This document shows, piece by piece, positions 4,801-25,038 of a stretch of DNA of 25,496 nucleotides; the stretch's first letter is position 1; each line of letters opens with the position of its first letter. The DNA lies in the IMG/VR virus record IMGVR_UViG_2724679539_000001, positions 1-25,496 of that record; one strand, written 5' to 3'. A program made the translations under genes and the position numbers. Source of the stretch: a virus (lineage: Duplodnaviria; Heunggongvirae; Uroviricota; Caudoviricetes). The notes under the pieces are model-generated. The model was not told the origin of the DNA. It saw nothing but the letters and a program-made list of their open reading frames with translations, and ran no database searches.

Positions 4801-5316
4801 GATATCAGCGGTAACGTGAATGCGAACTCCGGGACGCTCAACAACGTCACGATTAACGAGAACTGCCGGGTTCTGGGAAAACTGTCCGCGAACCAGATTG
4901 AAGGCGATCTCGTTAAAACAGTGGGCAAAGCTTTCCCCCGTGACTCCCGTGCACCGGAACGGTGGCCATCAGGGACCATTACCGTCAGGGTTTATGACGA
5001 TCAGCCGTTTGACCGGCAGATTGTTATTCCAGCGGTGGCTTTCAGCGGTGCCAGACATGAACGGGAGAATAGCGATACTTATTCGTCATGCCGCCTGATA
5101 GTGAAGAAAAACGGGGCTGAAATTTATAACCGAACGGCTCTGGATAATACTCTGATTTACACGGGTGTTATTGATATGCCTGCAGGCAGTGGCGTAATGA
5201 CACTGGAGTTTTCGGTATCAGCATGGTGGGTAAATGGCTGGTATCCCACAGCAAGTATCAGCGATTTGCTGGTTGTGGTGATGAAGAAAGCCACCGCAGG
5301 CATCAGTATCAGCTGA
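1837..5316 (+). CDS. J: Tail tip attachment / host specificity protein J (lambda gpJ-like)
   Basis: 1159-aa ORF starting [34 protein letters not shown], near-identical to the lambda J N-terminus as recalled. Preceded by GAGG RBS. Fibronectin-like central repeats and a C-terminal receptor-binding region. Confidence 0.95.
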
Positions 5317-5335
5317 ATTTTATAACCCCAATACG

Positions 5336-5383: not shown

Positions 5384-5983
5384 ATGCGTAAATTATGTGC
5401 TGTTATTCTGTCCGCAGTAGTCTGGCTGGTTGCCGCTGGTACGCCAGCGAGCGCAGCAGAGCATCAGTCCACACTAAGCGCCGGGTATCTTCAGGCCCAT
5501 ACTGATATGCCAGGCAGTGATGACCTGAAGGGCATTAACGTGAAATACCGTTATGAATTTACGGACACGCTGGGGCTGGTGACGTCATTCAGTTATGCCA
5601 ATGCCAAAGATGAGCAAAAAACGCATTACAGCGATACCCGCTGGCATGAAGATTCCGTGCGTAACCGCTGGTTCAGCATGATGGCGGGGCCATCTGTACG
5701 CGTGAATGAATGGTTCAGTGCTTATGCGATGGCAGGTGTGGCTTACAGCCGTGTTTCGACGTTCTCCGGGGATTATCTCCGCGTAACTGACAACAAGGGG
5801 AAAACGCACGATGTGCTGACCGGAAGTGATGACGATCGCCACAGCAACACGTCTCTGGCGTGGGGAGCTGGCGTGCAGTTTAACCCGACCGAATCCGTGG
5901 CCATTGATATTGCTTATGAAGGCTCCGGCAGTGGCGACTGGCGCACTGACGGTTTCATCGTGGGTGTCGGTTATAAGTTCTGA
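5384..5983 (+). CDS. lom: Lom-like outer membrane protein (Ail/Lom/PagC beta-barrel family)
   Basis: 199-aa ORF with signal peptide MRKLCAVILSAVVWLVAAGTPASA and a C-terminal aromatic residue (…VGYKF) typical of OMP barrels. Closely resembles lambda Lom; sits directly after J as in lambda. Confidence 0.9.
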   Translation: MRKLCAVILSAVVWLVAAGTPASAAEHQSTLSAGYLQAHTDMPGSDDLKGINVKYRYEFTDTLGLVTSFSYANAKDEQKTHYSDTRWHEDSVRNRWFSMMAGPSVRVNEWFSAYAMAGVAYSRVSTFSGDYLRVTDNKGKTHDVLTGSDDDRHSNTSLAWGAGVQFNPTESVAIDIAYEGSGSGDWRTDGFIVGVGYKF

Positions 5984-6036: not shown

Positions 6037-6047
6037 GTGGAGTGGAT

Positions 6048-8429
6048 ATGGCAGCAGTAAAAATCTCAGGTGTGCTGAAAGATGGTGCGGGAAAACCAAT
6101 ACAGAACTGCACTATTCAACTGAAGGCAAAGCGTAACAGCACCACGGTACTGGTGAACACGGTGGCCTCTGAAAATCCGGATGAAGCCGGGCGTTACAGC
6201 ATGGATGTTGAGTATGGTCAGTACAGCGTCACCCTGCTGGTTGAAGGTTTTCCGCCTTCACATGCCGGGACCATTACCGTCTATGAAGGTTCCAGACCAG
6301 GTACGCTGAATGATTTTCTCGGTGCCATGACGGAAGATGATGTCATGCCGGAGGCATTGCGTCGTTTTGAGGAAATGGTGGAAGAAGCGGCACGCAACGC
6401 TGAAGCCGCCTCTCAGAGCGCAGCGGCGGCAAAGAAATCCGAAACTGCAGCGGCATCATCGAAGAACGCGGCGAAAACCTCAGAAACGAATGCAGCTAAC
6501 AGCGCACAGGCGGCAGCGGCCTCGCAGACTGCATCGGCAAACTCCGCAACAGCAGCTAAAAAATCAGAAACCAACGCGAAAAATAGCGAGACAGCCGCAA
6601 AGACGAGCGAAACCAACGCAAAGTCCAGCCAGACGGCAGCGAAGACCAGCGAAACGAATGCCAAAGCCAGTGAAACTGCGGCAAAAAACAGCCAGGTTGC
6701 AGCAGCCCAAAGCGAGAGCGCGGCAGCCGGTTCTGCGACTTCAGCAGCTGGATCAGCAACTGCTACGGCTAACAGCCAGAAAGCTGCGAAGACGAGTGAA
6801 ACTAACGCAAAGTCCAGCCAGACGGCAGCGAAGACCAGCGAAACGAATGCCAAAGCCAGTGAAACTGCGGCGAAAAGCAGTCAGGATGCAGCGGCTCAAA
6901 GCGAGAGTGCCGCAGCCAGTTCTGCAAGCGCGGCGGCTGCTTCTGCCACTGCATCAGCCAACAGTCAAAAAGCAGCAAAAACCAGTGAAACCAATGCAAA
7001 GGCGAGCGAGACTGCGGCGGCTAACTCGGCGAAAGCATCCGCAGCAAGCCAGACGGCTGCAAAAGCAAGTGAAGACGCAGCCAGAGAGTATGCAAGCCAG
7101 GCTGCGGAGCCGTATAAACAAGTTTTGCAGCCGCTTCCCGATGTGTGGATACCATTTAACGATTCGCTGGATATGATTACGGGCTTTTCGCCGTCATATA
7201 AAAAGATTGTTATTGGTGATGATGAAATAACGATGCCTGGCGATAAGGTTGTAAAGTTTAAACGCGCATCAAAAGCAACTTACATTAATAAATCTGGTGT
7301 GCTGACAGAGGCTGCCATTGACGAGCCACGGTTTGAACGTGATGGCCTGCTTATTGAGGGGCAAAGAACTAATCTTCTGCTTAATTCAACAAATCCATCT
7401 AAATGGAATAAGTCAGGCAATCTGGAACTCACAGAAATATCCACGGATTCATTTAATTTTACTTATGGGAGATTTACTGTAAAAGATACTCTTATTGATC
7501 AGACAAGTGCGATTAATATCGCAACGGTTTCTGGCAGTAAAGGATTTGATGTCACAGGTGATGAAAAATATGTGACCATTTCATGCCGTGTCAGAAGTGA
7601 TGTTGAAAATATAAGGTGTCGTTTAAGATTTGAACATCATGATGGTTCTACTTACACTTTTTTGGGAGATGCTTACCTCAATTTATCAACACTTGTAATT
7701 GATAAGACTGGTGGTGCAGCAAATCGTATTATTGCAAAAGCTGTAAAAGATGAGGCTACTGGTTGGATTTTCTATCAGGCTACAATTAATGCACTAGATA
7801 CAGAGAGCATGATTGGTGCGATGGTTCAATATGCTCCAGTAAAAGGTTCAGGCACAGCATCTGGAGACTATCTGGATATCGCAACTCCACAAGTGGAAGG
7901 TGGATCAAGTGCTTCGTCATTTATTGTAACTGATATAACTGCAAGCACTCGCGCAAGCGATATGGTGACAGTCCCAATCAAGAATAACCTTTATAATCTT
8001 CCTTTTACGGTTCTTTGTGAGGTACATAAGAACTGGTATAAAACGCCAAATGCAGCACCGCGTGTTTTTGATACCGGCGGTCATCAAACCGGAGCGGCTA
8101 TTATTCTTGGCTTCGGTCGTTCAACAGATTACGACGGATTTCCTTATTGTGATATAGGTTTGGCTAACAGACGGGTAAACGAAAACGCATCGCTTGAAAA
8201 AATGGTTATGGGGATGCGTGTAAAGTCAGATCAGTCTACGTGCTCAGTAAGTAACGGGCGTATATCCAGCGAAACAAAAACCACATGGTCTTATATTCAG
8301 AACACCGCAATTATCCGTATTGGAGGCCAGACTACAGCCGGGTTACGTCATTTGTTTGGACACATCAGGAATTTCAGAATATGGCATAAAGAATTAACTG
8401 ATGCGCAAATGGGGGAGAGTATTAAATGA
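6048..8429 (+). CDS. stf: Side tail fibre protein with Stf-like N-terminal domain, Ala/Ser/Thr-rich repeat shaft and divergent AT-rich C-terminal domain
   Basis: N-terminus MAAVKISGVLKDGAGKPIQNCTIQLKAKRNSTTVLVNTVASENPDEAGRYSMDVEYGQYSV matches lambda Stf as recalled. The ORF track starts at GTG 6042; ATG at 6048 with GGAG 5 nt upstream is the more likely start. Confidence 0.85.
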   Translation: MAAVKISGVLKDGAGKPIQNCTIQLKAKRNSTTVLVNTVASENPDEAGRYSMDVEYGQYSVTLLVEGFPPSHAGTITVYEGSRPGTLNDFLGAMTEDDVMPEALRRFEEMVEEAARNAEAASQSAAAAKKSETAAASSKNAAKTSETNAANSAQAAAASQTASANSATAAKKSETNAKNSETAAKTSETNAKSSQTAAKTSETNAKASETAAKNSQVAAAQSESAAAGSATSAAGSATATANSQKAAKTSETNAKSSQTAAKTSETNAKASETAAKSSQDAAAQSESAAASSASAAAASATASANSQKAAKTSETNAKASETAAANSAKASAASQTAAKASEDAAREYASQAAEPYKQVLQPLPDVWIPFNDSLDMITGFSPSYKKIVIGDDEITMPGDKVVKFKRASKATYINKSGVLTEAAIDEPRFERDGLLIEGQRTNLLLNSTNPSKWNKSGNLELTEISTDSFNFTYGRFTVKDTLIDQTSAINIATVSGSKGFDVTGDEKYVTISCRVRSDVENIRCRLRFEHHDGSTYTFLGDAYLNLSTLVIDKTGGAANRIIAKAVKDEATGWIFYQATINALDTESMIGAMVQYAPVKGSGTASGDYLDIATPQVEGGSSASSFIVTDITASTRASDMVTVPIKNNLYNLPFTVLCEVHKNWYKTPNAAPRVFDTGGHQTGAAIILGFGRSTDYDGFPYCDIGLANRRVNENASLEKMVMGMRVKSDQSTCSVSNGRISSETKTTWSYIQNTAIIRIGGQTTAGLRHLFGHIRNFRIWHKELTDAQMGESIK
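6596..6929 (+). repeat. Internal tandem direct repeat inside stf (period 189 bp = 63 aa; two near-identical units with a 63-bp perfect core)
   Basis: 6621-6683 is identical to 6810-6872 (aagtccagccagacggcagcgaagaccagcgaaacgaatgccaaagccagtgaaactgcggc); flanks are ~85% identical. Encodes repeating KTSETNAK(A/S)S(E/Q)TAAK motifs. Confidence 0.85.
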
Positions 8430-8707
8430 AAGATTTAACACTCAAATTTGCAGACAGGGCCGACTTTTCGGCCTTTATGGAGAGTGCTGGCTATTATGAT
8501 GACGAGTCGATGCAGGATGATATTCTTATTGACGTGATAGGTAACGTGTACAAAGAAACCGGAGAACTTACTGAAGATGGCGAGCCGGTATGTGTTAAGG
8601 AAGACGGATATTTTGTAAACGTGCGCATCATTAATGATGTGAAAACACCGTCAATATTCGATGAATACGTGGTTGCTGTTGAGCATCAACTTCGTGGCTG
8701 GATGTGA
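8426..8707 (+). CDS. Hypothetical protein (93 aa), acidic, translationally coupled to stf (ATGA overlap)
   Basis: ORF with ATG overlapping the stf stop; AT-rich codon usage like its neighbours; no recognisable motif. Confidence 0.55.
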   Translation: MKDLTLKFADRADFSAFMESAGYYDDESMQDDILIDVIGNVYKETGELTEDGEPVCVKEDGYFVNVRIINDVKTPSIFDEYVVAVEHQLRGWM

Positions 8708-8716
8708 GGAAGAATA

Positions 8717-9757
8717 ATGGCTACATCGACAGTAATTCCTGATGACATCAAAACGCTAAAATCCGATGTTAGCAAATTAAAAAACGATCAAGGAAGCTAC
8801 GTAACAAAATCATATGTAGACAGCAAAAATGAAACCGTTAATGACTGGTCTGCTGCATGGTATCAGCAGGTACTGCCAACTAGCGGAGCTATATTTGGGC
8901 GAAAACTTCGCTCAACTCACAGGACGGCAGGTGTTGAGGATGCGTATTGCGAACTATACCTTAAAAAATGGATAGACAGCCCAGGGAACGCAATGGCGCG
9001 CCTTAACCTGAACGATAACGGTGAAAATATTTGCTGGGATTTTACCAACCTTTACGGCGGAACAATGATCTTCCCTGGTACTTCAGGCTATCTGAAAATG
9101 GGGAACTGTCTCATGTCGTATAGTGTGCGGGGAAGTAACGCGCTTATTAAGTTTGATTACACCGACACATTACAGATCAAATATGCTAATCATGGGTCAA
9201 CCATGACATTAACCACACAGGGATCCGCTCACGCTGGCGTAACAACTAGACTATGGGGTAATTCTAGCCGTCCGGTTGTTTATGAAGTTGGCGTAGATGA
9301 GGCTCTGTATATGTTCTACGCACAGAAAACTACCAGCAATACCTACGAATTAACGGTTAACGGCGCGTGCAATGCAAGTGCATTTAATCAAGGCTCTGAC
9401 CGGGATCTGAAAGACAATATTCAGGTGATCGATAATGCAACCGACCGCATTCGTAAAATGAACGGCTATACATACACGCTTAAAGAAAACGGTATGCCTT
9501 ACGCTGGTGTTATTGCACAAGAAACCCTGGAAGCCATCCCCGAAGCCGTAGGGTCTATGATGAAATATCCAGACGGCGGGAGTGGATTAGATGGAGAAGA
9601 AGGTGAACGGTATTACACAGTAGATTATTCTGGTGTTACTGGCTTGCTTGTTCAGGTAGCCAGAGAGTCGGACGACAGAATAACAGCACTGGAAGAAGAA
9701 AACGCAGAATTAAGACAAAGATTATCTGCAATTGAGGCGGCGCTTGCGTCTAAATAA
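8717..9757 (+). CDS. Tail fibre/tailspike-like protein with C-terminal peptidase S74 intramolecular chaperone (autoproteolytic) domain
   Basis: 346-aa ORF with GAGGA RBS. C-terminal region SDRDLKDNIQVIDNATDRIRKMNGYTYTLKENG...AGVIAQE followed by a coiled-coil tail (ITALEEENAELRQRLSAIEAALASK) fits the S74 chaperone signature with a Ser-x4-Lys dyad. Confidence 0.7.
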   Translation: MATSTVIPDDIKTLKSDVSKLKNDQGSYVTKSYVDSKNETVNDWSAAWYQQVLPTSGAIFGRKLRSTHRTAGVEDAYCELYLKKWIDSPGNAMARLNLNDNGENICWDFTNLYGGTMIFPGTSGYLKMGNCLMSYSVRGSNALIKFDYTDTLQIKYANHGSTMTLTTQGSAHAGVTTRLWGNSSRPVVYEVGVDEALYMFYAQKTTSNTYELTVNGACNASAFNQGSDRDLKDNIQVIDNATDRIRKMNGYTYTLKENGMPYAGVIAQETLEAIPEAVGSMMKYPDGGSGLDGEEGERYYTVDYSGVTGLLVQVARESDDRITALEEENAELRQRLSAIEAALASK

Positions 9758-9763
9758 TATTAA

Positions 9764-9786
9764 GGGGCCGAGCGCCCCGTTTTATT
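9764..9786 (+). terminator. Candidate terminator hairpin downstream of the S74-domain gene
   Basis: GGGGC-cgagc-GCCCC followed by GTTTTATT. Mirror copy at 15711-15733 on the minus strand. Confidence 0.45.
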
Positions 9787-9793
9787 GGGTAGG

Positions 9794-10087
9794 ATGAAAA
9801 TGGATATAACACCTTTCCTTCATGCACTTTGTGCTGTGGCTGCGCAGCTACTGATTGGTCTTTTTACCGGGAACTGGGCTTACGGTGCGATAGCCGGTTG
9901 TACGTTCTTCATCGCTCGTGAACATACCCAGGCAGAATATCGCTGGATTGAAATGTTCGGGCATGGCAAGCGTATGAATATGCCGTGGTGGGGCGGTTTT
10001 GATCCTCGCGCGTGGGATGTAGCAAGCCTGATGGATTTTGCTGTGCCGGTGGTGGCGTGTTTACTTGTATTTATATTTTTTGAATAA
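9794..10087 (+). CDS. Hypothetical small membrane protein (two predicted transmembrane segments)
   Basis: The ORF track begins at TTG 9785; ATG at 9794 or 9800 (GGTAGGA 5 nt upstream of 9800) is more plausible. Hydrophobic segments FLHALCAVAAQLLIGLF and VPVVACLLVFIFF. Confidence 0.55.
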   Translation: MKMDITPFLHALCAVAAQLLIGLFTGNWAYGAIAGCTFFIAREHTQAEYRWIEMFGHGKRMNMPWWGGFDPRAWDVASLMDFAVPVVACLLVFIFFE

Positions 10088-10092
10088 AATTA

Positions 10093-10119
10093 AGACCCCA
10101 TCTATAACTGATGGGGTCT
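10093..10119. terminator. Bidirectional terminator-like hairpin between the convergent membrane-protein gene and sopB
   Basis: Perfect 10-bp inverted repeat AGACCCCATC-tataact-GATGGGGTCT with A/T-rich flanks on both sides. Mirror copy at 15378-15404. Confidence 0.5.
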
Positions 10120-10135
10120 ATTCTATTTTCTGCTA

Positions 10136-11125
10136 TTAGTTATTTTTTACATCGGAAGAATTTCCAAACGCCTCCTCAAGAATAGATTCAATTTTACTCA
10201 TTAGGTGCGATGGTATTTTTCTGTTATCTAATTTTAATGTTGTGAAATTTTTCCCATATTTCGCCACAACACCGTCTCCATATTTCTTTTCCCTTTTCTC
10301 TCCATGTGAATTGTTTTTCTCAACAATAATGAAATCATGAAGAGCCTGTATTATTCTTTGCGCATCTAAACTTTCACCTGATTTTTTCATCCTCAGCAAC
10401 TGAGATGCAGCATTTTTCATGGCTGCTTCCTGTCCCTGATATGCTTTAAAAAGAGCGTCTCCTGCTCTGGCTGATAACTCACCAGGATGGTTAAATATTG
10501 CCAATATATCTTTAGGTAAACCGGCTGTATTAATACATCGGCTGATAATATTTCTATCCACGCCTTCGGCTTCAGCTAAAGATTTTACGTTACCGTCAAA
10601 TTCATGGAGCCTTCGCAGGTATCTTTTCCCCCTTTCATAGGCGCTGATAGGTCTATAGTCGTTGCCTATCTGCGATAACCATTGCATTTGTTCATCATCT
10701 AAATCGCCAATAAGAACACGATAATCGCATCCAGTTATAATGGCTGCTTTACGTCTTCGAGAACCATCAGCTACTTCAACAATACCTGACACTTTTCTTG
10801 CGAAAGCCGGATTTTGTTGCCCAGAAGTTAGAAAAGATGGAATTAAATCAGCTAGAGAAGATTCATTTAATAAATCTTGATCACGCTCATTACCTAGCCA
10901 TACCATTGTTGCCATTTCTACTTTATCTGCGGGGATCGTCTCTAACTTAAAGTTAACATTACGTCCGCATACTGGCAAAGTTATGCTATTACCGGTTAAT
11001 GAACTCAGTTGACGTTTTAAATCACCAACCATAGGTGATACCGGCTGATGTTCAGGTGCATGATGATTATTACTCATAATGCGATTAATATCCGGAGCAT
11101 TTTTTAGAAGAGAGCGTTGTTTCAT
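10136..11125 (-). CDS. sopB: Partition protein SopB (ParB family, type Ia)
   Basis: 329-aa ORF. N-terminal two-thirds resemble F-plasmid SopB (ITLPVCGR, WxGNERDQ, GQQ.PAF, DGSRRRKAA, NDYRP.SAYERG, FSHPGELSA-like motifs); the C-terminus is divergent. ATG overlaps the sopA stop. Confidence 0.9.
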   Translation of the reverse strand: MKQRSLLKNAPDINRIMSNNHHAPEHQPVSPMVGDLKRQLSSLTGNSITLPVCGRNVNFKLETIPADKVEMATMVWLGNERDQDLLNESSLADLIPSFLTSGQQNPAFARKVSGIVEVADGSRRRKAAIITGCDYRVLIGDLDDEQMQWLSQIGNDYRPISAYERGKRYLRRLHEFDGNVKSLAEAEGVDRNIISRCINTAGLPKDILAIFNHPGELSARAGDALFKAYQGQEAAMKNAASQLLRMKKSGESLDAQRIIQALHDFIIVEKNNSHGEKREKKYGDGVVAKYGKNFTTLKLDNRKIPSHLMSKIESILEEAFGNSSDVKNN

Positions 11126-12291
11126 TCTTCGTTCTCCCAGCGAGGTTTTATTAGATCATCAAAAATTTCTCGACAAACAGGGTCCCATATAGAGACGGCA
11201 TTTCTCCATGCATTAAGTGTTGAACGCTGGTTTGCCGCTTGTTCAAATACTGTTCGCATTTTTATCTGACCTTTACCTACTTCATCGGTAACGCGTACAA
11301 CCTGACGTAATACCATTGATCCCCATGTATTTCTTATTTGCTCTTCCATCCATCGTGATTGATTTCCTGTAGTGAGACTATATTTAGTCAGAAGCAAGCG
11401 AACGGTCGGCTCAAATCCGCCTAGGTCAACGCTTTCTAGGAGATCGAGAAGCATTGTGAAAAACTGTAGAACAGAGGCGTAATCAAATAATTCTGCAGGG
11501 GTAGCAACAACGATAACGTCAGCTGCGCAAACAACGTTAATGGTTCCTGTACCGAGGTTTGGAGCACTATCTATAACGATAACATCGTAGTTATCCCAAA
11601 CTGATTCTATAGCTGCGCGTAGCATCAGGTGAGGAGGGTGAGGCAATTTACCCTGAGCATGATATTGCATGAGATCTGTTTCTATACGGTGTAAAGCTAG
11701 GCAGCTAGGAATAATGTCCAGTCCAGGCCAGCATGTTGGTTTTATAGCATATTCAGCGTTATCGCGTTCGCCCAAGTAAAATGGCAGTAAAGTATCCTCG
11801 GCATGTATATGTAAATCAGGTACATAACCGTGATACATGGAGGCTGTTCCCTGAGGATCGTTACCTTCAACTAAAAGAACACGATGACCTTGTAATGCTA
11901 GCCATTGTGCCTGATGTACTGCAGACGATGTTTTATAAACTCCGCCTTTGTGTGACATAACAGCAAGCACAACTGGGTTTTTATCTTGTGGCCGTTGGTT
12001 TGGGTTGCCAAAAACAGCTCGCATACTATTGATTTGATCTATGGTATAACCGGCACGACGTTCAACTCTTCCTCTCATTTCAAAGTCAGGTGCAGGTAAA
12101 CGCCCGTTCTTCTCAGCATCTCTTATTGCTTGAGGAGTTACACCAATTAAATCTGCTACTTCAGTTATCCCCCATCTACGCGTGATACGCCGAGCTTCAG
12201 GACTATCATCACCGAATTGAGCTATAGCAATTGCTTGGGTCATTTCTTGACCGCGCGTAACACAATCTTGTAATAACTTTTTCAAAGACAT
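11122..12291 (-). CDS. sopA: Partition ATPase SopA (ParA family, type Ia with N-terminal HTH extension)
   Basis: 389-aa ORF with deviant Walker A KGGVYKTS and a long N-terminal extension. High similarity to F/N15 SopA as recalled (LLVEGNDPQGTASMYHG, IDSAPNLG, KGQIRMRTVFEQA-like blocks). GGAG RBS. Confidence 0.95.
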   Translation of the reverse strand: MSLKKLLQDCVTRGQEMTQAIAIAQFGDDSPEARRITRRWGITEVADLIGVTPQAIRDAEKNGRLPAPDFEMRGRVERRAGYTIDQINSMRAVFGNPNQRPQDKNPVVLAVMSHKGGVYKTSSAVHQAQWLALQGHRVLLVEGNDPQGTASMYHGYVPDLHIHAEDTLLPFYLGERDNAEYAIKPTCWPGLDIIPSCLALHRIETDLMQYHAQGKLPHPPHLMLRAAIESVWDNYDVIVIDSAPNLGTGTINVVCAADVIVVATPAELFDYASVLQFFTMLLDLLESVDLGGFEPTVRLLLTKYSLTTGNQSRWMEEQIRNTWGSMVLRQVVRVTDEVGKGQIKMRTVFEQAANQRSTLNAWRNAVSIWDPVCREIFDDLIKPRWENEE

Positions 12292-12312
12292 ACTGTCATC
12301 TCCAGCTTATAA

Positions 12313-12390
12313 CTTTGCTTAATAATTATTGCTTTGCATATTTCTAGCAAATTGACATAGAAAAAGCAAAGTAAAACAAAAAAGGCAAAG
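12313..12390 (-). promoter_or_regulatory. Putative sopAB promoter/operator region with four CTTTGC/GCAAAG hexamers
   Basis: Hexamers at 12313-12318, 12332-12337, 12366-12371 and 12385-12390, immediately upstream of sopA. F SopA is known to autoregulate via CTTTGC repeats overlapping its promoter. Exact -35/-10 not resolved. Confidence 0.45.
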
Positions 12391-12570: not shown

Positions 12571-12720
12571 CACCAACAAAAGAACACAATCAAAGATCGT
12601 AAAACAACAATAATAATTCACACAAAATAAAGAACACAAATACAGAAAACAACAACACAATAAAAACAAGAGAACACAAGCTATAAATATTACACCAATA
12701 GAGAACACTAATCAAGAACA
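12571..12720. repeat. Array of AGAACACA(A) direct repeats flanking the telomere palindrome (left arm)
   Basis: AGAACACAAT at 12581-12590, AGAACACAAA at 12631-12640, AACAACACAA at 12651-12660, AGAACACAAG at 12671-12680, GAGAACACTA at 12701-12710, and GAACA at 12716-12720 abutting the palindrome. Confidence 0.6.
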
Positions 12721-12776
12721 TATCAGCACATAATTTCCCATTATACGCGCGTATAATGGGAAATTATGTGCTGATA
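12721..12776. other. 56-bp perfect palindrome at the symmetry axis; putative protelomerase target / hairpin telomere (telRL/telO-like)
   Basis: Sequence TATCAGCACATAATTTCCCATTATACGCGCGTATAATGGGAAATTATGTGCTGATA. The central 22 bp match the N15 telO core as I recall it; the flanking arms differ from N15 at a few positions. Sits immediately beyond sopA, as telL does in N15. Confidence 0.75.
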
Positions 12777-12926
12777 TGTTCTTGATTAGTGTTCTCTATT
12801 GGTGTAATATTTATAGCTTGTGTTCTCTTGTTTTTATTGTGTTGTTGTTTTCTGTATTTGTGTTCTTTATTTTGTGTGAATTATTATTGTTGTTTTACGA
12901 TCTTTGATTGTGTTCTTTTGTTGGTG
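12777..12926. repeat. Mirror copy of the AGAACACA repeat array (right arm, opposite orientation)
   Basis: Reverse complement of 12571-12720 (TGTGTTCT motifs). Confidence 0.6.
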
Positions 12927-13106
12927 AGGATTAGGAGAATAAATAGAGGAAACGTATCTCATTGATGATTTTCATCATGTTTCACTAGTTTTATACGATT
13001 TCCTTTCTTTTAAAAAATCCTTTATTATCAATTTGTTATGATCTTGCCGTTGTTTTTTTTTGCATTTAAGGGATAAAACAAAAGATGATTTTGTTCAAAT
13101 CTTCGT

Positions 13107-13184
13107 CTTTGCCTTTTTTGTTTTACTTTGCTTTTTCTATGTCAATTTGCTAGAAATATGCAAAGCAATAATTATTAAGCAAAG
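13107..13184 (+). promoter_or_regulatory. Putative sopAB promoter/operator region (mirror copy)
   Basis: Mirror of 12313-12390; CTTTGC/GCAAAG hexamers upstream of the second sopA copy. Confidence 0.45.
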
Positions 13185-13205
13185 TTATAAGCTGGAGATG
13201 ACAGT

Positions 13206-14375
13206 ATGTCTTTGAAAAAGTTATTACAAGATTGTGTTACGCGCGGTCAAGAAATGACCCAAGCAATTGCTATAGCTCAATTCGGTGATGATAGTCCTGA
13301 AGCTCGGCGTATCACGCGTAGATGGGGGATAACTGAAGTAGCAGATTTAATTGGTGTAACTCCTCAAGCAATAAGAGATGCTGAGAAGAACGGGCGTTTA
13401 CCTGCACCTGACTTTGAAATGAGAGGAAGAGTTGAACGTCGTGCCGGTTATACCATAGATCAAATCAATAGTATGCGAGCTGTTTTTGGCAACCCAAACC
13501 AACGGCCACAAGATAAAAACCCAGTTGTGCTTGCTGTTATGTCACACAAAGGCGGAGTTTATAAAACATCGTCTGCAGTACATCAGGCACAATGGCTAGC
13601 ATTACAAGGTCATCGTGTTCTTTTAGTTGAAGGTAACGATCCTCAGGGAACAGCCTCCATGTATCACGGTTATGTACCTGATTTACATATACATGCCGAG
13701 GATACTTTACTGCCATTTTACTTGGGCGAACGCGATAACGCTGAATATGCTATAAAACCAACATGCTGGCCTGGACTGGACATTATTCCTAGCTGCCTAG
13801 CTTTACACCGTATAGAAACAGATCTCATGCAATATCATGCTCAGGGTAAATTGCCTCACCCTCCTCACCTGATGCTACGCGCAGCTATAGAATCAGTTTG
13901 GGATAACTACGATGTTATCGTTATAGATAGTGCTCCAAACCTCGGTACAGGAACCATTAACGTTGTTTGCGCAGCTGACGTTATCGTTGTTGCTACCCCT
14001 GCAGAATTATTTGATTACGCCTCTGTTCTACAGTTTTTCACAATGCTTCTCGATCTCCTAGAAAGCGTTGACCTAGGCGGATTTGAGCCGACCGTTCGCT
14101 TGCTTCTGACTAAATATAGTCTCACTACAGGAAATCAATCACGATGGATGGAAGAGCAAATAAGAAATACATGGGGATCAATGGTATTACGTCAGGTTGT
14201 ACGCGTTACCGATGAAGTAGGTAAAGGTCAGATAAAAATGCGAACAGTATTTGAACAAGCGGCAAACCAGCGTTCAACACTTAATGCATGGAGAAATGCC
14301 GTCTCTATATGGGACCCTGTTTGTCGAGAAATTTTTGATGATCTAATAAAACCTCGCTGGGAGAACGAAGAATGA
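13206..14375 (+). CDS. sopA: Partition ATPase SopA (mirror copy)
   Basis: Protein identical to the 11122-12291 ORF. Confidence 0.95.
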   Translation: MSLKKLLQDCVTRGQEMTQAIAIAQFGDDSPEARRITRRWGITEVADLIGVTPQAIRDAEKNGRLPAPDFEMRGRVERRAGYTIDQINSMRAVFGNPNQRPQDKNPVVLAVMSHKGGVYKTSSAVHQAQWLALQGHRVLLVEGNDPQGTASMYHGYVPDLHIHAEDTLLPFYLGERDNAEYAIKPTCWPGLDIIPSCLALHRIETDLMQYHAQGKLPHPPHLMLRAAIESVWDNYDVIVIDSAPNLGTGTINVVCAADVIVVATPAELFDYASVLQFFTMLLDLLESVDLGGFEPTVRLLLTKYSLTTGNQSRWMEEQIRNTWGSMVLRQVVRVTDEVGKGQIKMRTVFEQAANQRSTLNAWRNAVSIWDPVCREIFDDLIKPRWENEE

Positions 14376-15361
14376 AACAACGCTCTCTTCTAAAAAATGC
14401 TCCGGATATTAATCGCATTATGAGTAATAATCATCATGCACCTGAACATCAGCCGGTATCACCTATGGTTGGTGATTTAAAACGTCAACTGAGTTCATTA
14501 ACCGGTAATAGCATAACTTTGCCAGTATGCGGACGTAATGTTAACTTTAAGTTAGAGACGATCCCCGCAGATAAAGTAGAAATGGCAACAATGGTATGGC
14601 TAGGTAATGAGCGTGATCAAGATTTATTAAATGAATCTTCTCTAGCTGATTTAATTCCATCTTTTCTAACTTCTGGGCAACAAAATCCGGCTTTCGCAAG
14701 AAAAGTGTCAGGTATTGTTGAAGTAGCTGATGGTTCTCGAAGACGTAAAGCAGCCATTATAACTGGATGCGATTATCGTGTTCTTATTGGCGATTTAGAT
14801 GATGAACAAATGCAATGGTTATCGCAGATAGGCAACGACTATAGACCTATCAGCGCCTATGAAAGGGGGAAAAGATACCTGCGAAGGCTCCATGAATTTG
14901 ACGGTAACGTAAAATCTTTAGCTGAAGCCGAAGGCGTGGATAGAAATATTATCAGCCGATGTATTAATACAGCCGGTTTACCTAAAGATATATTGGCAAT
15001 ATTTAACCATCCTGGTGAGTTATCAGCCAGAGCAGGAGACGCTCTTTTTAAAGCATATCAGGGACAGGAAGCAGCCATGAAAAATGCTGCATCTCAGTTG
15101 CTGAGGATGAAAAAATCAGGTGAAAGTTTAGATGCGCAAAGAATAATACAGGCTCTTCATGATTTCATTATTGTTGAGAAAAACAATTCACATGGAGAGA
15201 AAAGGGAAAAGAAATATGGAGACGGTGTTGTGGCGAAATATGGGAAAAATTTCACAACATTAAAATTAGATAACAGAAAAATACCATCGCACCTAATGAG
15301 TAAAATTGAATCTATTCTTGAGGAGGCGTTTGGAAATTCTTCCGATGTAAAAAATAACTAA
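14372..15361 (+). CDS. sopB: Partition protein SopB (mirror copy)
   Basis: Protein identical to the 10136-11125 ORF. Confidence 0.9.
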   Translation: MKQRSLLKNAPDINRIMSNNHHAPEHQPVSPMVGDLKRQLSSLTGNSITLPVCGRNVNFKLETIPADKVEMATMVWLGNERDQDLLNESSLADLIPSFLTSGQQNPAFARKVSGIVEVADGSRRRKAAIITGCDYRVLIGDLDDEQMQWLSQIGNDYRPISAYERGKRYLRRLHEFDGNVKSLAEAEGVDRNIISRCINTAGLPKDILAIFNHPGELSARAGDALFKAYQGQEAAMKNAASQLLRMKKSGESLDAQRIIQALHDFIIVEKNNSHGEKREKKYGDGVVAKYGKNFTTLKLDNRKIPSHLMSKIESILEEAFGNSSDVKNN

Positions 15362-15409
15362 TAGCAGAAAATAGAATAGACCCCATCAGTTATAGATGGG
15401 GTCTTAATT

Positions 15410-15703
15410 TTATTCAAAAAATATAAATACAAGTAAACACGCCACCACCGGCACAGCAAAATCCATCAGGCTTGCTACATCCCACGCGCGAGGATCAAAA
15501 CCGCCCCACCACGGCATATTCATACGCTTGCCATGCCCGAACATTTCAATCCAGCGATATTCTGCCTGGGTATGTTCACGAGCGATGAAGAACGTACAAC
15601 CGGCTATCGCACCGTAAGCCCAGTTCCCGGTAAAAAGACCAATCAGTAGCTGCGCAGCCACAGCACAAAGTGCATGAAGGAAAGGTGTTATATCCATTTT
15701 CAT
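15410..15703 (-). CDS. Hypothetical small membrane protein (mirror copy)
   Basis: Mirror of 9794-10087. Confidence 0.55.
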   Translation of the reverse strand: MKMDITPFLHALCAVAAQLLIGLFTGNWAYGAIAGCTFFIAREHTQAEYRWIEMFGHGKRMNMPWWGGFDPRAWDVASLMDFAVPVVACLLVFIFFE

Positions 15704-15739
15704 CCTACCCAATAAAACGGGGCGCTCGGCCCCTTAATA

Positions 15740-16780
15740 TTATTTAGACGCAAGCGCCGCCTCAATTGCAGATAATCTTTGTCTTAATTCTGCGTTTTCT
15801 TCTTCCAGTGCTGTTATTCTGTCGTCCGACTCTCTGGCTACCTGAACAAGCAAGCCAGTAACACCAGAATAATCTACTGTGTAATACCGTTCACCTTCTT
15901 CTCCATCTAATCCACTCCCGCCGTCTGGATATTTCATCATAGACCCTACGGCTTCGGGGATGGCTTCCAGGGTTTCTTGTGCAATAACACCAGCGTAAGG
16001 CATACCGTTTTCTTTAAGCGTGTATGTATAGCCGTTCATTTTACGAATGCGGTCGGTTGCATTATCGATCACCTGAATATTGTCTTTCAGATCCCGGTCA
16101 GAGCCTTGATTAAATGCACTTGCATTGCACGCGCCGTTAACCGTTAATTCGTAGGTATTGCTGGTAGTTTTCTGTGCGTAGAACATATACAGAGCCTCAT
16201 CTACGCCAACTTCATAAACAACCGGACGGCTAGAATTACCCCATAGTCTAGTTGTTACGCCAGCGTGAGCGGATCCCTGTGTGGTTAATGTCATGGTTGA
16301 CCCATGATTAGCATATTTGATCTGTAATGTGTCGGTGTAATCAAACTTAATAAGCGCGTTACTTCCCCGCACACTATACGACATGAGACAGTTCCCCATT
16401 TTCAGATAGCCTGAAGTACCAGGGAAGATCATTGTTCCGCCGTAAAGGTTGGTAAAATCCCAGCAAATATTTTCACCGTTATCGTTCAGGTTAAGGCGCG
16501 CCATTGCGTTCCCTGGGCTGTCTATCCATTTTTTAAGGTATAGTTCGCAATACGCATCCTCAACACCTGCCGTCCTGTGAGTTGAGCGAAGTTTTCGCCC
16601 AAATATAGCTCCGCTAGTTGGCAGTACCTGCTGATACCATGCAGCAGACCAGTCATTAACGGTTTCATTTTTGCTGTCTACATATGATTTTGTTACGTAG
16701 CTTCCTTGATCGTTTTTTAATTTGCTAACATCGGATTTTAGCGTTTTGATGTCATCAGGAATTACTGTCGATGTAGCCAT
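15740..16780 (-). CDS. Tail fibre-like protein with S74 intramolecular chaperone domain (mirror copy)
   Basis: Protein identical to the 8717-9757 ORF. Confidence 0.7.
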   Translation of the reverse strand: MATSTVIPDDIKTLKSDVSKLKNDQGSYVTKSYVDSKNETVNDWSAAWYQQVLPTSGAIFGRKLRSTHRTAGVEDAYCELYLKKWIDSPGNAMARLNLNDNGENICWDFTNLYGGTMIFPGTSGYLKMGNCLMSYSVRGSNALIKFDYTDTLQIKYANHGSTMTLTTQGSAHAGVTTRLWGNSSRPVVYEVGVDEALYMFYAQKTTSNTYELTVNGACNASAFNQGSDRDLKDNIQVIDNATDRIRKMNGYTYTLKENGMPYAGVIAQETLEAIPEAVGSMMKYPDGGSGLDGEEGERYYTVDYSGVTGLLVQVARESDDRITALEEENAELRQRLSAIEAALASK

Positions 16781-16789
16781 TATTCTTCC

Positions 16790-17071
16790 TCACATCCAGC
16801 CACGAAGTTGATGCTCAACAGCAACCACGTATTCATCGAATATTGACGGTGTTTTCACATCATTAATGATGCGCACGTTTACAAAATATCCGTCTTCCTT
16901 AACACATACCGGCTCGCCATCTTCAGTAAGTTCTCCGGTTTCTTTGTACACGTTACCTATCACGTCAATAAGAATATCATCCTGCATCGACTCGTCATCA
17001 TAATAGCCAGCACTCTCCATAAAGGCCGAAAAGTCGGCCCTGTCTGCAAATTTGAGTGTTAAATCTTTCAT
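16790..17071 (-). CDS. Hypothetical protein, 93 aa (mirror copy)
   Basis: Protein identical to the 8426-8707 ORF. Confidence 0.55.
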   Translation of the reverse strand: MKDLTLKFADRADFSAFMESAGYYDDESMQDDILIDVIGNVYKETGELTEDGEPVCVKEDGYFVNVRIINDVKTPSIFDEYVVAVEHQLRGWM

Positions 17072-19449
17072 TTAATACTCTCCCCCATTTGCGCATCAGT
17101 TAATTCTTTATGCCATATTCTGAAATTCCTGATGTGTCCAAACAAATGACGTAACCCGGCTGTAGTCTGGCCTCCAATACGGATAATTGCGGTGTTCTGA
17201 ATATAAGACCATGTGGTTTTTGTTTCGCTGGATATACGCCCGTTACTTACTGAGCACGTAGACTGATCTGACTTTACACGCATCCCCATAACCATTTTTT
17301 CAAGCGATGCGTTTTCGTTTACCCGTCTGTTAGCCAAACCTATATCACAATAAGGAAATCCGTCGTAATCTGTTGAACGACCGAAGCCAAGAATAATAGC
17401 CGCTCCGGTTTGATGACCGCCGGTATCAAAAACACGCGGTGCTGCATTTGGCGTTTTATACCAGTTCTTATGTACCTCACAAAGAACCGTAAAAGGAAGA
17501 TTATAAAGGTTATTCTTGATTGGGACTGTCACCATATCGCTTGCGCGAGTGCTTGCAGTTATATCAGTTACAATAAATGACGAAGCACTTGATCCACCTT
17601 CCACTTGTGGAGTTGCGATATCCAGATAGTCTCCAGATGCTGTGCCTGAACCTTTTACTGGAGCATATTGAACCATCGCACCAATCATGCTCTCTGTATC
17701 TAGTGCATTAATTGTAGCCTGATAGAAAATCCAACCAGTAGCCTCATCTTTTACAGCTTTTGCAATAATACGATTTGCTGCACCACCAGTCTTATCAATT
17801 ACAAGTGTTGATAAATTGAGGTAAGCATCTCCCAAAAAAGTGTAAGTAGAACCATCATGATGTTCAAATCTTAAACGACACCTTATATTTTCAACATCAC
17901 TTCTGACACGGCATGAAATGGTCACATATTTTTCATCACCTGTGACATCAAATCCTTTACTGCCAGAAACCGTTGCGATATTAATCGCACTTGTCTGATC
18001 AATAAGAGTATCTTTTACAGTAAATCTCCCATAAGTAAAATTAAATGAATCCGTGGATATTTCTGTGAGTTCCAGATTGCCTGACTTATTCCATTTAGAT
18101 GGATTTGTTGAATTAAGCAGAAGATTAGTTCTTTGCCCCTCAATAAGCAGGCCATCACGTTCAAACCGTGGCTCGTCAATGGCAGCCTCTGTCAGCACAC
18201 CAGATTTATTAATGTAAGTTGCTTTTGATGCGCGTTTAAACTTTACAACCTTATCGCCAGGCATCGTTATTTCATCATCACCAATAACAATCTTTTTATA
18301 TGACGGCGAAAAGCCCGTAATCATATCCAGCGAATCGTTAAATGGTATCCACACATCGGGAAGCGGCTGCAAAACTTGTTTATACGGCTCCGCAGCCTGG
18401 CTTGCATACTCTCTGGCTGCGTCTTCACTTGCTTTTGCAGCCGTCTGGCTTGCTGCGGATGCTTTCGCCGAGTTAGCCGCCGCAGTCTCGCTCGCCTTTG
18501 CATTGGTTTCACTGGTTTTTGCTGCTTTTTGACTGTTGGCTGATGCAGTGGCAGAAGCAGCCGCCGCGCTTGCAGAACTGGCTGCGGCACTCTCGCTTTG
18601 AGCCGCTGCATCCTGACTGCTTTTCGCCGCAGTTTCACTGGCTTTGGCATTCGTTTCGCTGGTCTTCGCTGCCGTCTGGCTGGACTTTGCGTTAGTTTCA
18701 CTCGTCTTCGCAGCTTTCTGGCTGTTAGCCGTAGCAGTTGCTGATCCAGCTGCTGAAGTCGCAGAACCGGCTGCCGCGCTCTCGCTTTGGGCTGCTGCAA
18801 CCTGGCTGTTTTTTGCCGCAGTTTCACTGGCTTTGGCATTCGTTTCGCTGGTCTTCGCTGCCGTCTGGCTGGACTTTGCGTTGGTTTCGCTCGTCTTTGC
18901 GGCTGTCTCGCTATTTTTCGCGTTGGTTTCTGATTTTTTAGCTGCTGTTGCGGAGTTTGCCGATGCAGTCTGCGAGGCCGCTGCCGCCTGTGCGCTGTTA
19001 GCTGCATTCGTTTCTGAGGTTTTCGCCGCGTTCTTCGATGATGCCGCTGCAGTTTCGGATTTCTTTGCCGCCGCTGCGCTCTGAGAGGCGGCTTCAGCGT
19101 TGCGTGCCGCTTCTTCCACCATTTCCTCAAAACGACGCAATGCCTCCGGCATGACATCATCTTCCGTCATGGCACCGAGAAAATCATTCAGCGTACCTGG
19201 TCTGGAACCTTCATAGACGGTAATGGTCCCGGCATGTGAAGGCGGAAAACCTTCAACCAGCAGGGTGACGCTGTACTGACCATACTCAACATCCATGCTG
19301 TAACGCCCGGCTTCATCCGGATTTTCAGAGGCCACCGTGTTCACCAGTACCGTGGTGCTGTTACGCTTTGCCTTCAGTTGAATAGTGCAGTTCTGTATTG
19401 GTTTTCCCGCACCATCTTTCAGCACACCTGAGATTTTTACTGCTGCCAT
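17068..19449 (-). CDS. stf: Stf-like side tail fibre protein (mirror copy)
   Basis: Protein identical to the 6048-8429 ORF. Confidence 0.85.
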   Translation of the reverse strand: MAAVKISGVLKDGAGKPIQNCTIQLKAKRNSTTVLVNTVASENPDEAGRYSMDVEYGQYSVTLLVEGFPPSHAGTITVYEGSRPGTLNDFLGAMTEDDVMPEALRRFEEMVEEAARNAEAASQSAAAAKKSETAAASSKNAAKTSETNAANSAQAAAASQTASANSATAAKKSETNAKNSETAAKTSETNAKSSQTAAKTSETNAKASETAAKNSQVAAAQSESAAAGSATSAAGSATATANSQKAAKTSETNAKSSQTAAKTSETNAKASETAAKSSQDAAAQSESAAASSASAAAASATASANSQKAAKTSETNAKASETAAANSAKASAASQTAAKASEDAAREYASQAAEPYKQVLQPLPDVWIPFNDSLDMITGFSPSYKKIVIGDDEITMPGDKVVKFKRASKATYINKSGVLTEAAIDEPRFERDGLLIEGQRTNLLLNSTNPSKWNKSGNLELTEISTDSFNFTYGRFTVKDTLIDQTSAINIATVSGSKGFDVTGDEKYVTISCRVRSDVENIRCRLRFEHHDGSTYTFLGDAYLNLSTLVIDKTGGAANRIIAKAVKDEATGWIFYQATINALDTESMIGAMVQYAPVKGSGTASGDYLDIATPQVEGGSSASSFIVTDITASTRASDMVTVPIKNNLYNLPFTVLCEVHKNWYKTPNAAPRVFDTGGHQTGAAIILGFGRSTDYDGFPYCDIGLANRRVNENASLEKMVMGMRVKSDQSTCSVSNGRISSETKTTWSYIQNTAIIRIGGQTTAGLRHLFGHIRNFRIWHKELTDAQMGESIK
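18568..18901 (-). repeat. Internal 189-bp tandem repeat inside stf (mirror copy)
   Basis: Mirror of 6596-6929. Confidence 0.85.
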
Positions 19450-19513
19450 ATCCACTCCACAAAAAAGCCCGCCTGAACCGGCGGGCTGTCATAACACTGT
19501 GTTACCTGGCTAA

Positions 19514-20113: not shown

Positions 20114-20180
20114 AATTACCTCTCGCTTTTCTGCAATAAAAAAGGCGTCATTTCTGACGCCCGTATTGGGGTTATAAAAT

Positions 20181-23660: not shown

Positions 23661-23720
23661 TCCTCACGCTCCATAAATGACAAAACCGCCCGCAGGCGGT
23701 TTCACATAAAACATTTTGCA

Positions 23721-25033: not shown

Positions 25034-25038
25034 GGGAT

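What the first reader, a model, noticed from the sequence alone, without database searches (positions are those of the whole stretch)
10136..12291. Plasmid partition operon embedded in a phage tail region implies a plasmid-prophage lifestyle
A type Ia sopA-sopB pair sits next to lambda-like tail genes and a hairpin telomere site, and no integrase or att site is visible. That combination is diagnostic of an extrachromosomal (N15/phiKO2/PY54-like) prophage rather than an integrated lambdoid one. The tail module looks highly lambda-like at protein level, suggesting a lambda/N15 mosaic.
Basis: inference. Interest (0 to 1): 0.65.

Follow-up and report, generated by a model that had tools for sequence, protein, structure and literature searches.

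The report
Partition genes of N15-like linear prophage
The two genes are the plasmid-partition operon of an already catalogued kind of E. coli phage that lives as a linear plasmid with hairpin ends, and the whole window is that plasmid's end read around the hairpin and back, so the finding is correct but ordinary.

Summary
ORFs 11122-12291(-) and 10136-11125(-) are SopA (NCBIfam SopA equivalog, 734 bits) and SopB (ParB/SopB_HTH). Their amino-acid sequences are 100% identical to those of Escherichia phage PhiR46_1 and plasmid pEC21Z151-46K. They are 93% and 74% identical to N15 gp28 and gp27.

The whole 25,496-nt window is a perfect palindrome about 12748/12749, with mismatches only in the terminal 16 nt. 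Only 12.7 kb is unique, and the sop operon appears twice as mirror images.

The dyad lies in an N15-type telomere site (26 of 28 bases of the N15 telRL half-site). In relatives the native telRL is palindromic for only 54 bp. The window is therefore a telR-telR' junction, meaning a covalently closed hairpin end read around its tip. The same fold-back recurs in many independent assemblies.

Complete relatives (about 46 kb) carry telN, repA, cI/cro/Q and dispersed N15-type centromeres, and no integrase. Their head and tail genes are about 97% identical in nucleotide sequence to phage lambda.

The N15-like plasmid-prophage and lambda/N15 mosaic reading is supported, but it is already known. Interest is low.

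The parts
1..458 (+). 3' part of lambda-type minor tail gene L (runs off the window start)
   Evidence: Relatives annotate 'phage minor tail protein L' here. The stretch is 97% identical in nucleotide sequence to lambda.
464..1207 (+). Tail tip assembly gene K (JAB + NlpC/P60)
   Evidence: Pfam Prok-JAB and NLPC_P60. Annotated as K / C40 peptidase in relatives.
1105..1776 (+). Tail assembly gene I (relatives annotate a 190-aa product starting near 1204)
   Evidence: Pfam Lambda_tail_I 1.1e-28.
1837..5316 (+). Host-specificity / tip attachment gene J
   Evidence: Six GpJ Pfam domains. The N-terminal two thirds are 97% identical in nucleotide sequence to lambda J. Only 30% amino-acid identity to N15 gp21.
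5384..5983 (+). lom (Ail/Lom outer-membrane protein)
   Evidence: Pfam Ail_Lom 2e-127.
6042..8429 (+). Side tail fibre gene (stf-like)
   Evidence: Pfam phage_tail_N 7e-67. Annotated as side tail fibre in PhiR46_1.
8426..8707 (+). 93-aa ORF of unknown function between the tail-fibre genes
   Evidence: phrog_1361, unknown function. Conserved in relatives.
8717..9757 (+). Tail-fibre protein with C-terminal intramolecular chaperone domain
   Evidence: Pfam Peptidase_S74; phrog_4563 tail fibre 3e-210.
9785..10087 (+). About 95-100-aa ORF of unknown function in the variable slot before sopB
   Evidence: phrog_1443, unknown function. No Pfam or NCBIfam hit.
10093..10119 (.). Bidirectional intrinsic-terminator-like hairpin separating the late (tail) operon from the convergent sop operon
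   Evidence: 10-bp stem with 6 G-C pairs and T-runs on both strands.
10136..11125 (-). sopB (ParB-family centromere-binding protein)
   Evidence: NCBIfam PRK13698 405.5 bits; Pfam SoPB_HTH; F SopB structure 3mky 5.8e-39; 74% identical to N15 gp27; identical to PhiR46_1 ParB.
11122..12291 (-). sopA (type Ia ParA ATPase with N-terminal HTH)
   Evidence: NCBIfam SopA equivalog 734 bits; Walker A KGGVYKT at residue 115; 93% identical to N15 gp28; identical to PhiR46_1 ParA.
12313..12390 (-). sopAB promoter-operator: five CTTTGC-type SopA-binding hexamers
   Evidence: Direct hexamers at 12385-90, 12366-71 and 12347-52 (ATTTGC). Inverted hexamers at 12332-37 and 12313-18. The 19-nt and 34-nt spacings equal those described for F, N15 and phiKO2. 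Four perfect copies fall within 78 nt, against 14 in the whole 12.7-kb arm.
12582..12721 (+). AT-rich subtelomeric region with five direct GAACA(C/T) repeats
   Evidence: Repeats at 12582, 12632, 12672, 12703 and 12716. N15 has GAACAT repeats flanking telRL. GC is about 0.33. A role as accessory TelN binding sites is inferred.
12721..12776 (.). Telomere site: two mirrored telR half-sites, with the hairpin tip (dyad) between 12748 and 12749
   Evidence: The half-site matches 26 of 28 bases of the N15 telRL half. The 22-bp telO core CCATTATACGCGCGTATAATGG is identical to N15. The record of PhiR46_1 ends here and annotates 'telR site'.
12749..25496 (.). Mirror-image (reverse-complement) copy of 1-12748, including a second sopA (13206-14375, +) and sopB (14372-15361, +)
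   Evidence: Zero mismatches between the arms except at 7 positions within the terminal 16 nt. The divergent bases are on the 3' end.

Best explanation
The window is the telR arm of an N15-type linear plasmid prophage of E. coli. This is a 'telomere phage' or phage-plasmid whose head and tail module is that of phage lambda. The arm has been read up to the covalently closed hairpin tip and back down the complementary strand, so 12,748 bp of real sequence appear as a 25,496-bp palindrome.

The flagged genes are its type Ia partition operon. SopA is a Walker-type ParA ATPase with an N-terminal winged HTH. It probably represses its own promoter by binding the CTTTGC hexamer array at 12313-12390. 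SopB is a ParB-family protein that binds 16-bp palindromic centromeres (TGCGACCNNGGTCGCA). As in N15, these centromeres are not next to the operon. They are scattered over the other arm of the replicon and none lies in the window. SopB-centromere complexes stimulate nucleoid-bound SopA, which positions the low-copy linear plasmids on either side of the division plane.

The telomere beside sopA is made and maintained by a protelomerase (TelN) encoded at the opposite end of the prophage.

Shown here: gene identities, operator layout, tel-site identity, palindrome geometry, and the gene content of complete relatives. Inferred from the F and N15 literature: the repression, centromere binding and partition mechanism, and the idea that the fold-back arose during sequencing or assembly rather than in the cell.
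For: Palindrome: there are 14 mismatching positions out of 25,496, all within 16 nt of the ends. The central 120 nt fold as a perfect hairpin, z = -22.

Tel site: the half-site matches 26 of 28 bases of N15 telRL and the telO core is identical. In PhiR46_1 and in contig BGWN01000032.1 the native telRL is palindromic for only 54 bp and then diverges into a telN-side arm. The window's junction is therefore R-R', not telRL.

The same R-R' fold-back occurs in independent assemblies. In NODE_130_length_90054 and a 94,358-nt scaffold the tel dyad is exactly mid-contig. It also occurs in NZ_CP101203.1 (14,498 = 2 x 7,249) and at the start of the YDC107 'chromosome' record. Terminal inverse duplications are the accepted signature of hairpin telomeres in Borrelia assemblies.

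SopA and SopB: family scores are, and solved F SopB. They are 93% and 74% identical to N15 and 100% identical to PhiR46_1 and pEC21Z151-46K.

Operator: the hexamer layout equals that described for F, N15 and phiKO2 (PMC8465637).

Centromeres: there are 5 perfect TGCGACCNNGGTCGCA sites in PhiR46_1 and 4 in N15, against 0.2 expected. There are none in the window. The motif equals N15 IR1-3 in PMC7205306.

Complete relatives carry telN, repA, cI/cro/Q and no integrase. The lambda module is 97.0% identical over window 1-4333 and 96.7% over 18 kb of PhiR46_1.
Against: The window itself contains no telN, repA, immunity genes or centromere sites. The replicon-level claim therefore rests on relatives. 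Those relatives are identical in SopA and SopB protein sequence and 99.8% identical in nucleotide sequence over 9700-12748, but only about 96-97% identical elsewhere.

No read-level data were available. Sequence alone cannot separate a read-through of a hairpin from a genuine replicated-telomere junction.

The consensus scan found no sigma-70 promoter upstream of sopA. No experiment on this element's SopA, SopB or tel site was found in the searched literature.
Confidence: 0.9

Rival explanations
1. The palindrome is a real double-stranded molecule. It would be the replicated telomere junction (telR-telR') of a head-to-head dimer, the normal replication intermediate of N15-type plasmids before protelomerase resolves it. 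Alternatively it could be a stable unresolved inverted dimer. The biology of the sop operon would be the same, but the window would then report an in-cell DNA form rather than a read-through.
For: N15 replication passes through a dimeric circular intermediate that TelN cuts at two telomeric junctions (PMC12624138). Such a junction has exactly the sequence seen at 12721-12776. Sequence alone cannot exclude it.
Against: Replicated junctions are transient substrates of TelN and should be a small minority of molecules. The same fold-back appears in many unrelated isolate and metagenome assemblies, including whole-replicon fold-backs with the dyad exactly mid-contig. One long-read case has an arm riddled with frameshifts. 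This points to a systematic read-through or assembly-graph effect. The exactly equal arm lengths and a junk 16-nt end also look like an assembly-graph product.
Confidence: 0.07
2. An integrated lambdoid prophage that merely carries sop genes. This is the refutation scenario named by the first reader.
For: The tail genes are 97% identical to lambda, which integrates. Two public records place this sop/tel region inside chromosome-sized contigs.
Against: The window has no integrase, att site, tRNA or chromosomal gene. Complete relatives lack an integrase and have telN, repA and annotated telomeres. Both 'chromosomal' cases contain the same tel-centred palindrome. They are joined through repeated tail-fibre or tail genes, or lie at the very start of the record with a frameshift-ridden arm, so they are chimeric assemblies.
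Confidence: 0.01
3. A circular plasmid with a genuine 12.7-kb inverted duplication unrelated to telomeres.
For: Several relatives are deposited as 'circular' plasmids.
Against: The dyad falls exactly at the centre of a telO core identical to that of N15. The arms are 100% identical, which is not expected for an old duplication. A long perfect palindrome is not expected to be stable in E. coli (established knowledge, not tested here). Pfeifer et al. note that circular annotation of N15-group replicons is probably erroneous (PMC7969092).
Confidence: 0.01

Closest known systems
Escherichia phage PhiR46_1 (PV340565.1) and plasmid pEC21Z151-46K (NZ_CP101200.1)
   Same: SopA and SopB are identical in amino-acid sequence. 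Nucleotide identity is 99.8% over window 9700-12748 for PhiR46_1 and 97.1% over the whole arm for pEC21Z151-46K. Gene order L-K-I-J-lom-stf-...-sopB-sopA-telR is the same. The PhiR46_1 record ends at the same telO core, annotated 'telR site'.
   Different: There are about 3-4% nucleotide differences in the tail genes, and a different segment in the tail-fibre region around 7300-8380 relative to PhiR46_1. Those records show the arm once, whereas the window shows it folded back.
Phage N15 (NC_001901), the prototype linear plasmid prophage
   Same: The layout tail fibre - sopB - sopA - tel - (telN) is the same. SopA is 93% and SopB 74% identical. The telO core is identical and 26 of 28 bases of the half-site match. 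The centromere motif and CTTTGC operator layout are the same. TelN of the relative is 77% identical.
   Different: Nucleotide identity is only 73%, and only over sopBA. N15's tail genes are distant (gpJ 30% amino-acid identity), whereas here they are lambda's own. The subtelomeric 330 bp is not alignable. N15 has a UmuD-like gene where this element has a 100-aa ORF of unknown function.
phiKO2 (Klebsiella) and PY54 (Yersinia) telomere phages
   Same: The sopBA/parAB module lies next to the telomere. Nucleotide identity is 75% to phiKO2 and 64-65% to PY54.
   Different: The hosts, structural modules and telomere sequences are different. These were not compared in detail here.
F plasmid sopABC (type Ia ParABS)
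   Same: SopA passes the SopA equivalog model. The SopB DNA-binding domain matches solved F SopB. The hexamer operator motif and spacing are the same.
   Different: There is no tandem sopC array downstream of sopB. The F-type site TGGGACCNNGGTCCCA is absent. Centromeres are single 16-bp palindromes with a different sequence, dispersed elsewhere on the replicon.
Phage lambda (NC_001416)
   Same: Window 1-4333 (L, K, I and most of J) is 97.0% identical. In PhiR46_1 the whole Nu1-to-J block is 96.7% identical.
   Different: Lambda integrates through int/attP and has no sop, tel, telN or repA. Similarity ends inside J and in the tail-fibre genes.

Membership tests
N15-like telomere phage / linear plasmid prophage | Palindromic tel site recognised by a protelomerase | tested here: met
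   The telO core CCATTATACGCGCGTATAATGG is identical to N15, and 26 of 28 bases of the 28-nt half-site match.
N15-like telomere phage / linear plasmid prophage | Covalently closed hairpin ends | tested here: inconclusive
   A 12.7-kb perfect fold-back is centred on the tel dyad. The same fold-back occurs in other assemblies. This is the expected sequence signature, but physical proof (snap-back, alkaline gel) is not possible with these tools.
N15-like telomere phage / linear plasmid prophage | Protelomerase gene (telN/telK) | not testable with these tools
   The gene is not in the window, because it lies at the other telomere. It is present in replicons with identical SopA and SopB. It is also linked to the exact SopB across telRL in BGWN01000032.1. 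The other contigs of this sample are not available.
N15-like telomere phage / linear plasmid prophage | RepA-type primase/replication gene and cB/cro/Q immunity region | not testable with these tools
   These are outside the window. They are present in PhiR46_1 and pEC21Z151-46K.
N15-like telomere phage / linear plasmid prophage | No integrase or attachment site | tested here: met
   None is in the window. None is annotated in the complete relatives.
Type Ia ParABS (SopABC-like) partition system | Large ParA with Walker A motif and N-terminal HTH extension | tested here: met
   The protein is 389 aa with KGGVYKT at residue 115 and about 105 residues before the ATPase core. It has a weak MerR-type HTH at 42-68 and passes the SopA equivalog at 734 bits against a cut-off of 725.
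Type Ia ParABS (SopABC-like) partition system | ParB-family centromere-binding protein encoded downstream in the same operon | tested here: met
   The 329-aa SopB overlaps sopA by 4 nt. It passes PRK13698 and parB_part, has SoPB_HTH and matches F SopB structures.
Type Ia ParABS (SopABC-like) partition system | ParA operator (CTTTGC hexamers) in the promoter region | tested here: met
   Five hexamers (four perfect) have the 19-nt and 34-nt spacing of F, N15 and phiKO2. Binding itself was not tested.
Type Ia ParABS (SopABC-like) partition system | Cis-acting centromere adjacent to the operon (as sopC in F, parS in P1) | tested here: not met
   No F-type or N15-type site lies within the window at up to 2 mismatches. 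As in N15, the sites are dispersed on the other arm of relatives. The system is therefore the N15 variant of type Ia, not the F layout.
Integrated lambdoid prophage | Integrase/excisionase and att junctions with chromosomal flanks | tested here: not met
   There is no such gene or flank in the window or in the complete relatives.

The most novel reading that the evidence does not exclude
The 25.5-kb palindrome is not a read-through. It would be an abundant, physically real telR-telR' head-to-head junction, meaning that in the sampled cells a sizeable fraction of this lambda/N15 hybrid persists as unresolved inverted dimers. That would imply limiting or regulated protelomerase resolution in natural hosts.
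Probability: 0.05. Interest if true: 0.35.

Novelty: already known. Interest (0 to 1): 0.15.

Why it matters
Biologically it adds little. N15-type telomere phages and their sopAB operon have long been characterised in the literature. A phage with identical SopA and SopB and annotated telomeres is already in GenBank.

Two practical points are worth keeping. First, a contig that is a perfect palindrome centred on a tel site is direct sequence-level evidence for a hairpin-ended linear replicon. Half of such a contig should be discarded before annotation, otherwise genes are counted twice and replicon sizes are doubled. Several public 'plasmid' and even 'chromosome' records of this family carry this artefact. 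Second, this lineage shows cleanly how a lambda virion module (97% nucleotide identity) has been joined to an N15-type maintenance module. That is a useful example of modular exchange between integrating and plasmid prophages.

Tried and rejected
- The F-type sopC motif (TGGGACCNNGGTCCCA and shorter versions) is absent from the window, PhiR46_1, pEC21Z151-46K and N15.
- The N15-type centromere is absent from the window, even with 2 mismatches allowed. The partition system is therefore incomplete within the window.
- The sigma-70 consensus scan found no promoter upstream of sopA. I did not assign -35/-10 boxes by eye.
- Rfam at gathering thresholds and tRNA scans found nothing.
- I tested whether the divergent 16 nt at the 3' end belong to another lambdoid prophage allele. 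No complete E. coli genome continues the match past query base 89 of 100, so I treat those bases as a junk contig end.
- I looked for the exact source record. No plasmid, phage or E. coli record, and none of the 10 contigs read with the identical SopB, is identical over the whole arm.
- Literature searches for a paper describing PhiR46_1 or the ECOR-derived phages found none in the held library.
- The integrated-prophage reading was considered because two records place the region in chromosome-sized contigs. Both turned out to contain the same tel-centred palindrome and look chimeric.
Full report
**1. What is in the sequence**

The ORF table and the composition profile are mirror-symmetric. 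A direct test shows that the 25,496-nt window equals its own reverse complement. The exceptions are 14 positions, all within 16 nt of the two ends. The symmetry centre lies between 12748 and 12749.

Only 1-12748 is therefore unique sequence. The flagged genes at 10136-12291(-) reappear as a mirror copy at 13206-15361(+). At the ends, nt 1-16 agree with related replicons, while the mirrored 3' end carries seven differences. No complete E. coli genome continues a match into that variant 16-mer, so it is most simply a poor contig end.

**2. The flagged genes**

- The ORF at 11122-12291(-) encodes a 389-aa protein. It passes NCBI's SopA equivalog model (734.2 bits, cut-off 725). It has the ParA-type AAA_31/CbiA domain, a Walker A KGGVYKT at residue 115, and about 105 N-terminal residues with a weak HTH signal. 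That is the type Ia ParA architecture.
- The ORF at 10136-11125(-) encodes a 329-aa protein and overlaps sopA by 4 nt. It passes PRK13698 (405.5 bits, cut-off 274) and has the SopB_HTH domain. It matches solved F SopB (3mky, 5.8e-39) and has the ParB arginine patch GSRRRK.
- Against N15, SopA is 93% and SopB 74% identical in amino-acid sequence. The DNA is only 73% identical.
- Both proteins are 100% identical to those of Escherichia phage PhiR46_1 and plasmid pEC21Z151-46K.

**3. Control region**

Upstream of sopA there are five CTTTGC-type hexamers.
- Three are direct: 12385-90, 12366-71 and 12347-52 (the last reads ATTTGC). Their spacing is 19 nt.
- Two are inverted: 12332-37 and 12313-18. 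Each lies 34 nt from a direct partner.
- Four perfect copies fall within 78 nt, against 14 copies in the whole 12.7-kb arm.

This is the layout reported for the ParA/SopA operators of F, pLVPK, N15 and phiKO2 (PMC8465637). I infer SopA autorepression. The consensus promoter scan did not find a promoter there. A strong bidirectional terminator-like hairpin at 10093-10119 separates the convergent tail and sop transcription units.

**4. Centromeres**

The F-type sopC motif is absent. The N15 centromere palindrome TGCGACCNNGGTCGCA corresponds to IR1-3 in PMC7205306.
- It occurs four times in N15.
- It occurs five times in PhiR46_1, at 7932, 10375, 14754, 17794 and 18014, all on the other arm.
- About 0.2 occurrences are expected by chance.
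- It does not occur in the window, even with two mismatches allowed.

The window thus holds only the trans-acting half of the partition system. This is the N15 arrangement, not the F arrangement.

**5. The telomere and the palindrome**

The centre reads ...GAACATATCAGCACATAATTTCCCATTATACGC|GCGTATAATGGG.... The 22-bp telO core is identical to that of N15, and 26 of 28 bases of the half-site match N15 telRL.

The native telRL can be seen in two places. It can be rebuilt from the two ends of PhiR46_1, and it is read directly in contig BGWN01000032.1, where a gene with TelK/ResT domains lies across the site from sopA. There it is palindromic for only 54 bp, and the two flanks then differ.

In the window the palindrome continues for 12.7 kb. 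It is therefore a telR-telR' junction, the sequence obtained when a covalently closed hairpin is unfolded. The central 120 nt fold as a perfect hairpin.

The same fold-back occurs in many independent assemblies that encode the identical SopB.
- It extends to the edge of the retrieved locus in five of ten places read.
- In a SPAdes-named 90,054-nt contig and a 94,358-nt scaffold the dyad lies exactly mid-contig, so the whole replicon is folded back.
- It also occurs in the 14,498-nt 'plasmid' NZ_CP101203.1 (2 x 7,249).
- It occurs at the start of the YDC107 'chromosome' record, where one arm is full of frameshifts.

Terminal inverse duplications are used as the signature of hairpin telomeres in Borrelia assemblies. 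I conclude that the mirror half of the window is a read-through or assembly-graph product of a hairpin end. I cannot exclude from sequence alone that it is the transient replicated junction of the dimeric replication intermediate described for N15.

Next to the tel site is a 33% GC region with five direct GAACA(C/T) repeats. N15 has GAACAT repeats in the same place, and flanking repeats are reported there. Their role as accessory TelN sites is inferred.

**6. What replicon this is**

The whole arm is 97.1% identical to the end of pEC21Z151-46K (46,173 bp). The sop/tel part is 99.8% identical to the end of PhiR46_1 (46,290 bp, linear, annotated telL and telR).

Both replicons encode the following:
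- a protelomerase, 77% identical to N15 TelN;
- a 1,331-aa RepA-type protein;
- cI/cro/Q and a RelE/ParE toxin-antitoxin pair;
- lysis genes and a complete head and tail module;
- no integrase.

The structural module is lambda's own. Window 1-4333 is 97.0% identical to lambda 13670-18002. PhiR46_1 19858-37846 is 96.7% identical to lambda. N15 matches the window only over sopBA, at 73%, and J is only 30% identical to N15 gp21.

The refutation scenario, chromosomal flanks with integrase and att, is not met. The two records that place this region in chromosome-sized contigs contain the same tel-centred palindrome and look chimeric.

**7. Comparison with what is known, and novelty**

N15, phiKO2 and PY54 are the classical telomere phages. 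N15-group phage-plasmids all carry telN and are often wrongly deposited as circular (PMC7969092). Telomere phages with SopA and SopB are now known to be widespread (PMC12042878).

A phage with identical SopA and SopB and annotated telomeres is already public, and the exact SopB occurs in over two thousand blocks of the assembly collection. This is an already known kind of element and essentially an already known lineage. The window differs only by a few per cent and a tail-fibre segment.

**8. Verdict**

That palindrome is the best evidence for its own hypothesis, and it is also an artefact that duplicates every gene. Interest is low (0.15). The residual novel reading, a real and abundant unresolved dimer junction, has a probability of about 0.05.

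Noticed in passing
window 1-25496 (centre 12748/12749): The entire window is a perfect palindrome, and every gene is present twice as a mirror image. Any gene count or size estimate from this contig is doubled.
   Followed up: yes
window 25481-25496: The last 16 nt differ at 7 positions from the mirror of nt 1-16. Nt 1-16 agree with relatives. The variant is not continued in any of 5,426 complete E. coli genomes, so it is probably a junk contig end. The adjacent gene L segment occurs in 4,113 of those genomes, making it a repeat at which assemblies break.
   Followed up: yes
window 9785-10087 (and mirror 15410-15712): A 95-100-aa ORF of unknown function (phrog_1443) sits in a variable slot between the tail-fibre genes and sopB. 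Relatives carry other genes in this region, such as a macro-domain protein or EspS. N15 has a UmuD-like gene just before sopB. This looks like a cargo or moron hot-spot.
   Followed up: partly
window 10093-10119: A strong bidirectional terminator-like hairpin (10-bp stem, T-runs on both strands) lies between the convergent tail and sop operons.
   Followed up: partly
window 11122-12291 versus N15 23152-24315: SopA is 93% identical to N15 gp28 in protein but only about 73% identical in DNA. That suggests synonymous sites are heavily diverged and the protein is under strong purifying selection. SopB is much less conserved (74%).
   Followed up: partly
window 6000-7500 (stf gene): There is an unusually strong AT skew (0.31-0.36), with several antisense ORFs inside the side tail-fibre gene. 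Over the same stretch GC falls from about 0.6 (tail genes) to about 0.42. The cause was not examined.
   Followed up: no
NZ_CP101203.1; NZ_CP025707.1 1-37358 (L014); L006, L012 (contigs of 90,054 and 94,358 nt); CP088430.1 (91,525 nt): Several public 'plasmid' records and one 'chromosome' record of this family appear to be hairpin fold-backs, with doubled or partly doubled replicons. Others are deposited as circular although the family is linear. For CP088430.1 this is judged only from its size and its multiple matching places.
   Followed up: partly
L007/L008 (CASDMQ010000024.1, 2.7 Mb) and L009 (CASDMG010000043.1, 293 kb): The tel-centred sop palindrome is joined on one side to chromosomal genes (AraC-family regulators, omptin and nfrA in L008; prfC-like and BON-domain genes in L009). 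L009 also has a reverse-transcriptase gene next to a SLATT_5 gene near the sop genes. These are probably chimeric joins through repeated phage genes, but this was not resolved.
   Followed up: partly
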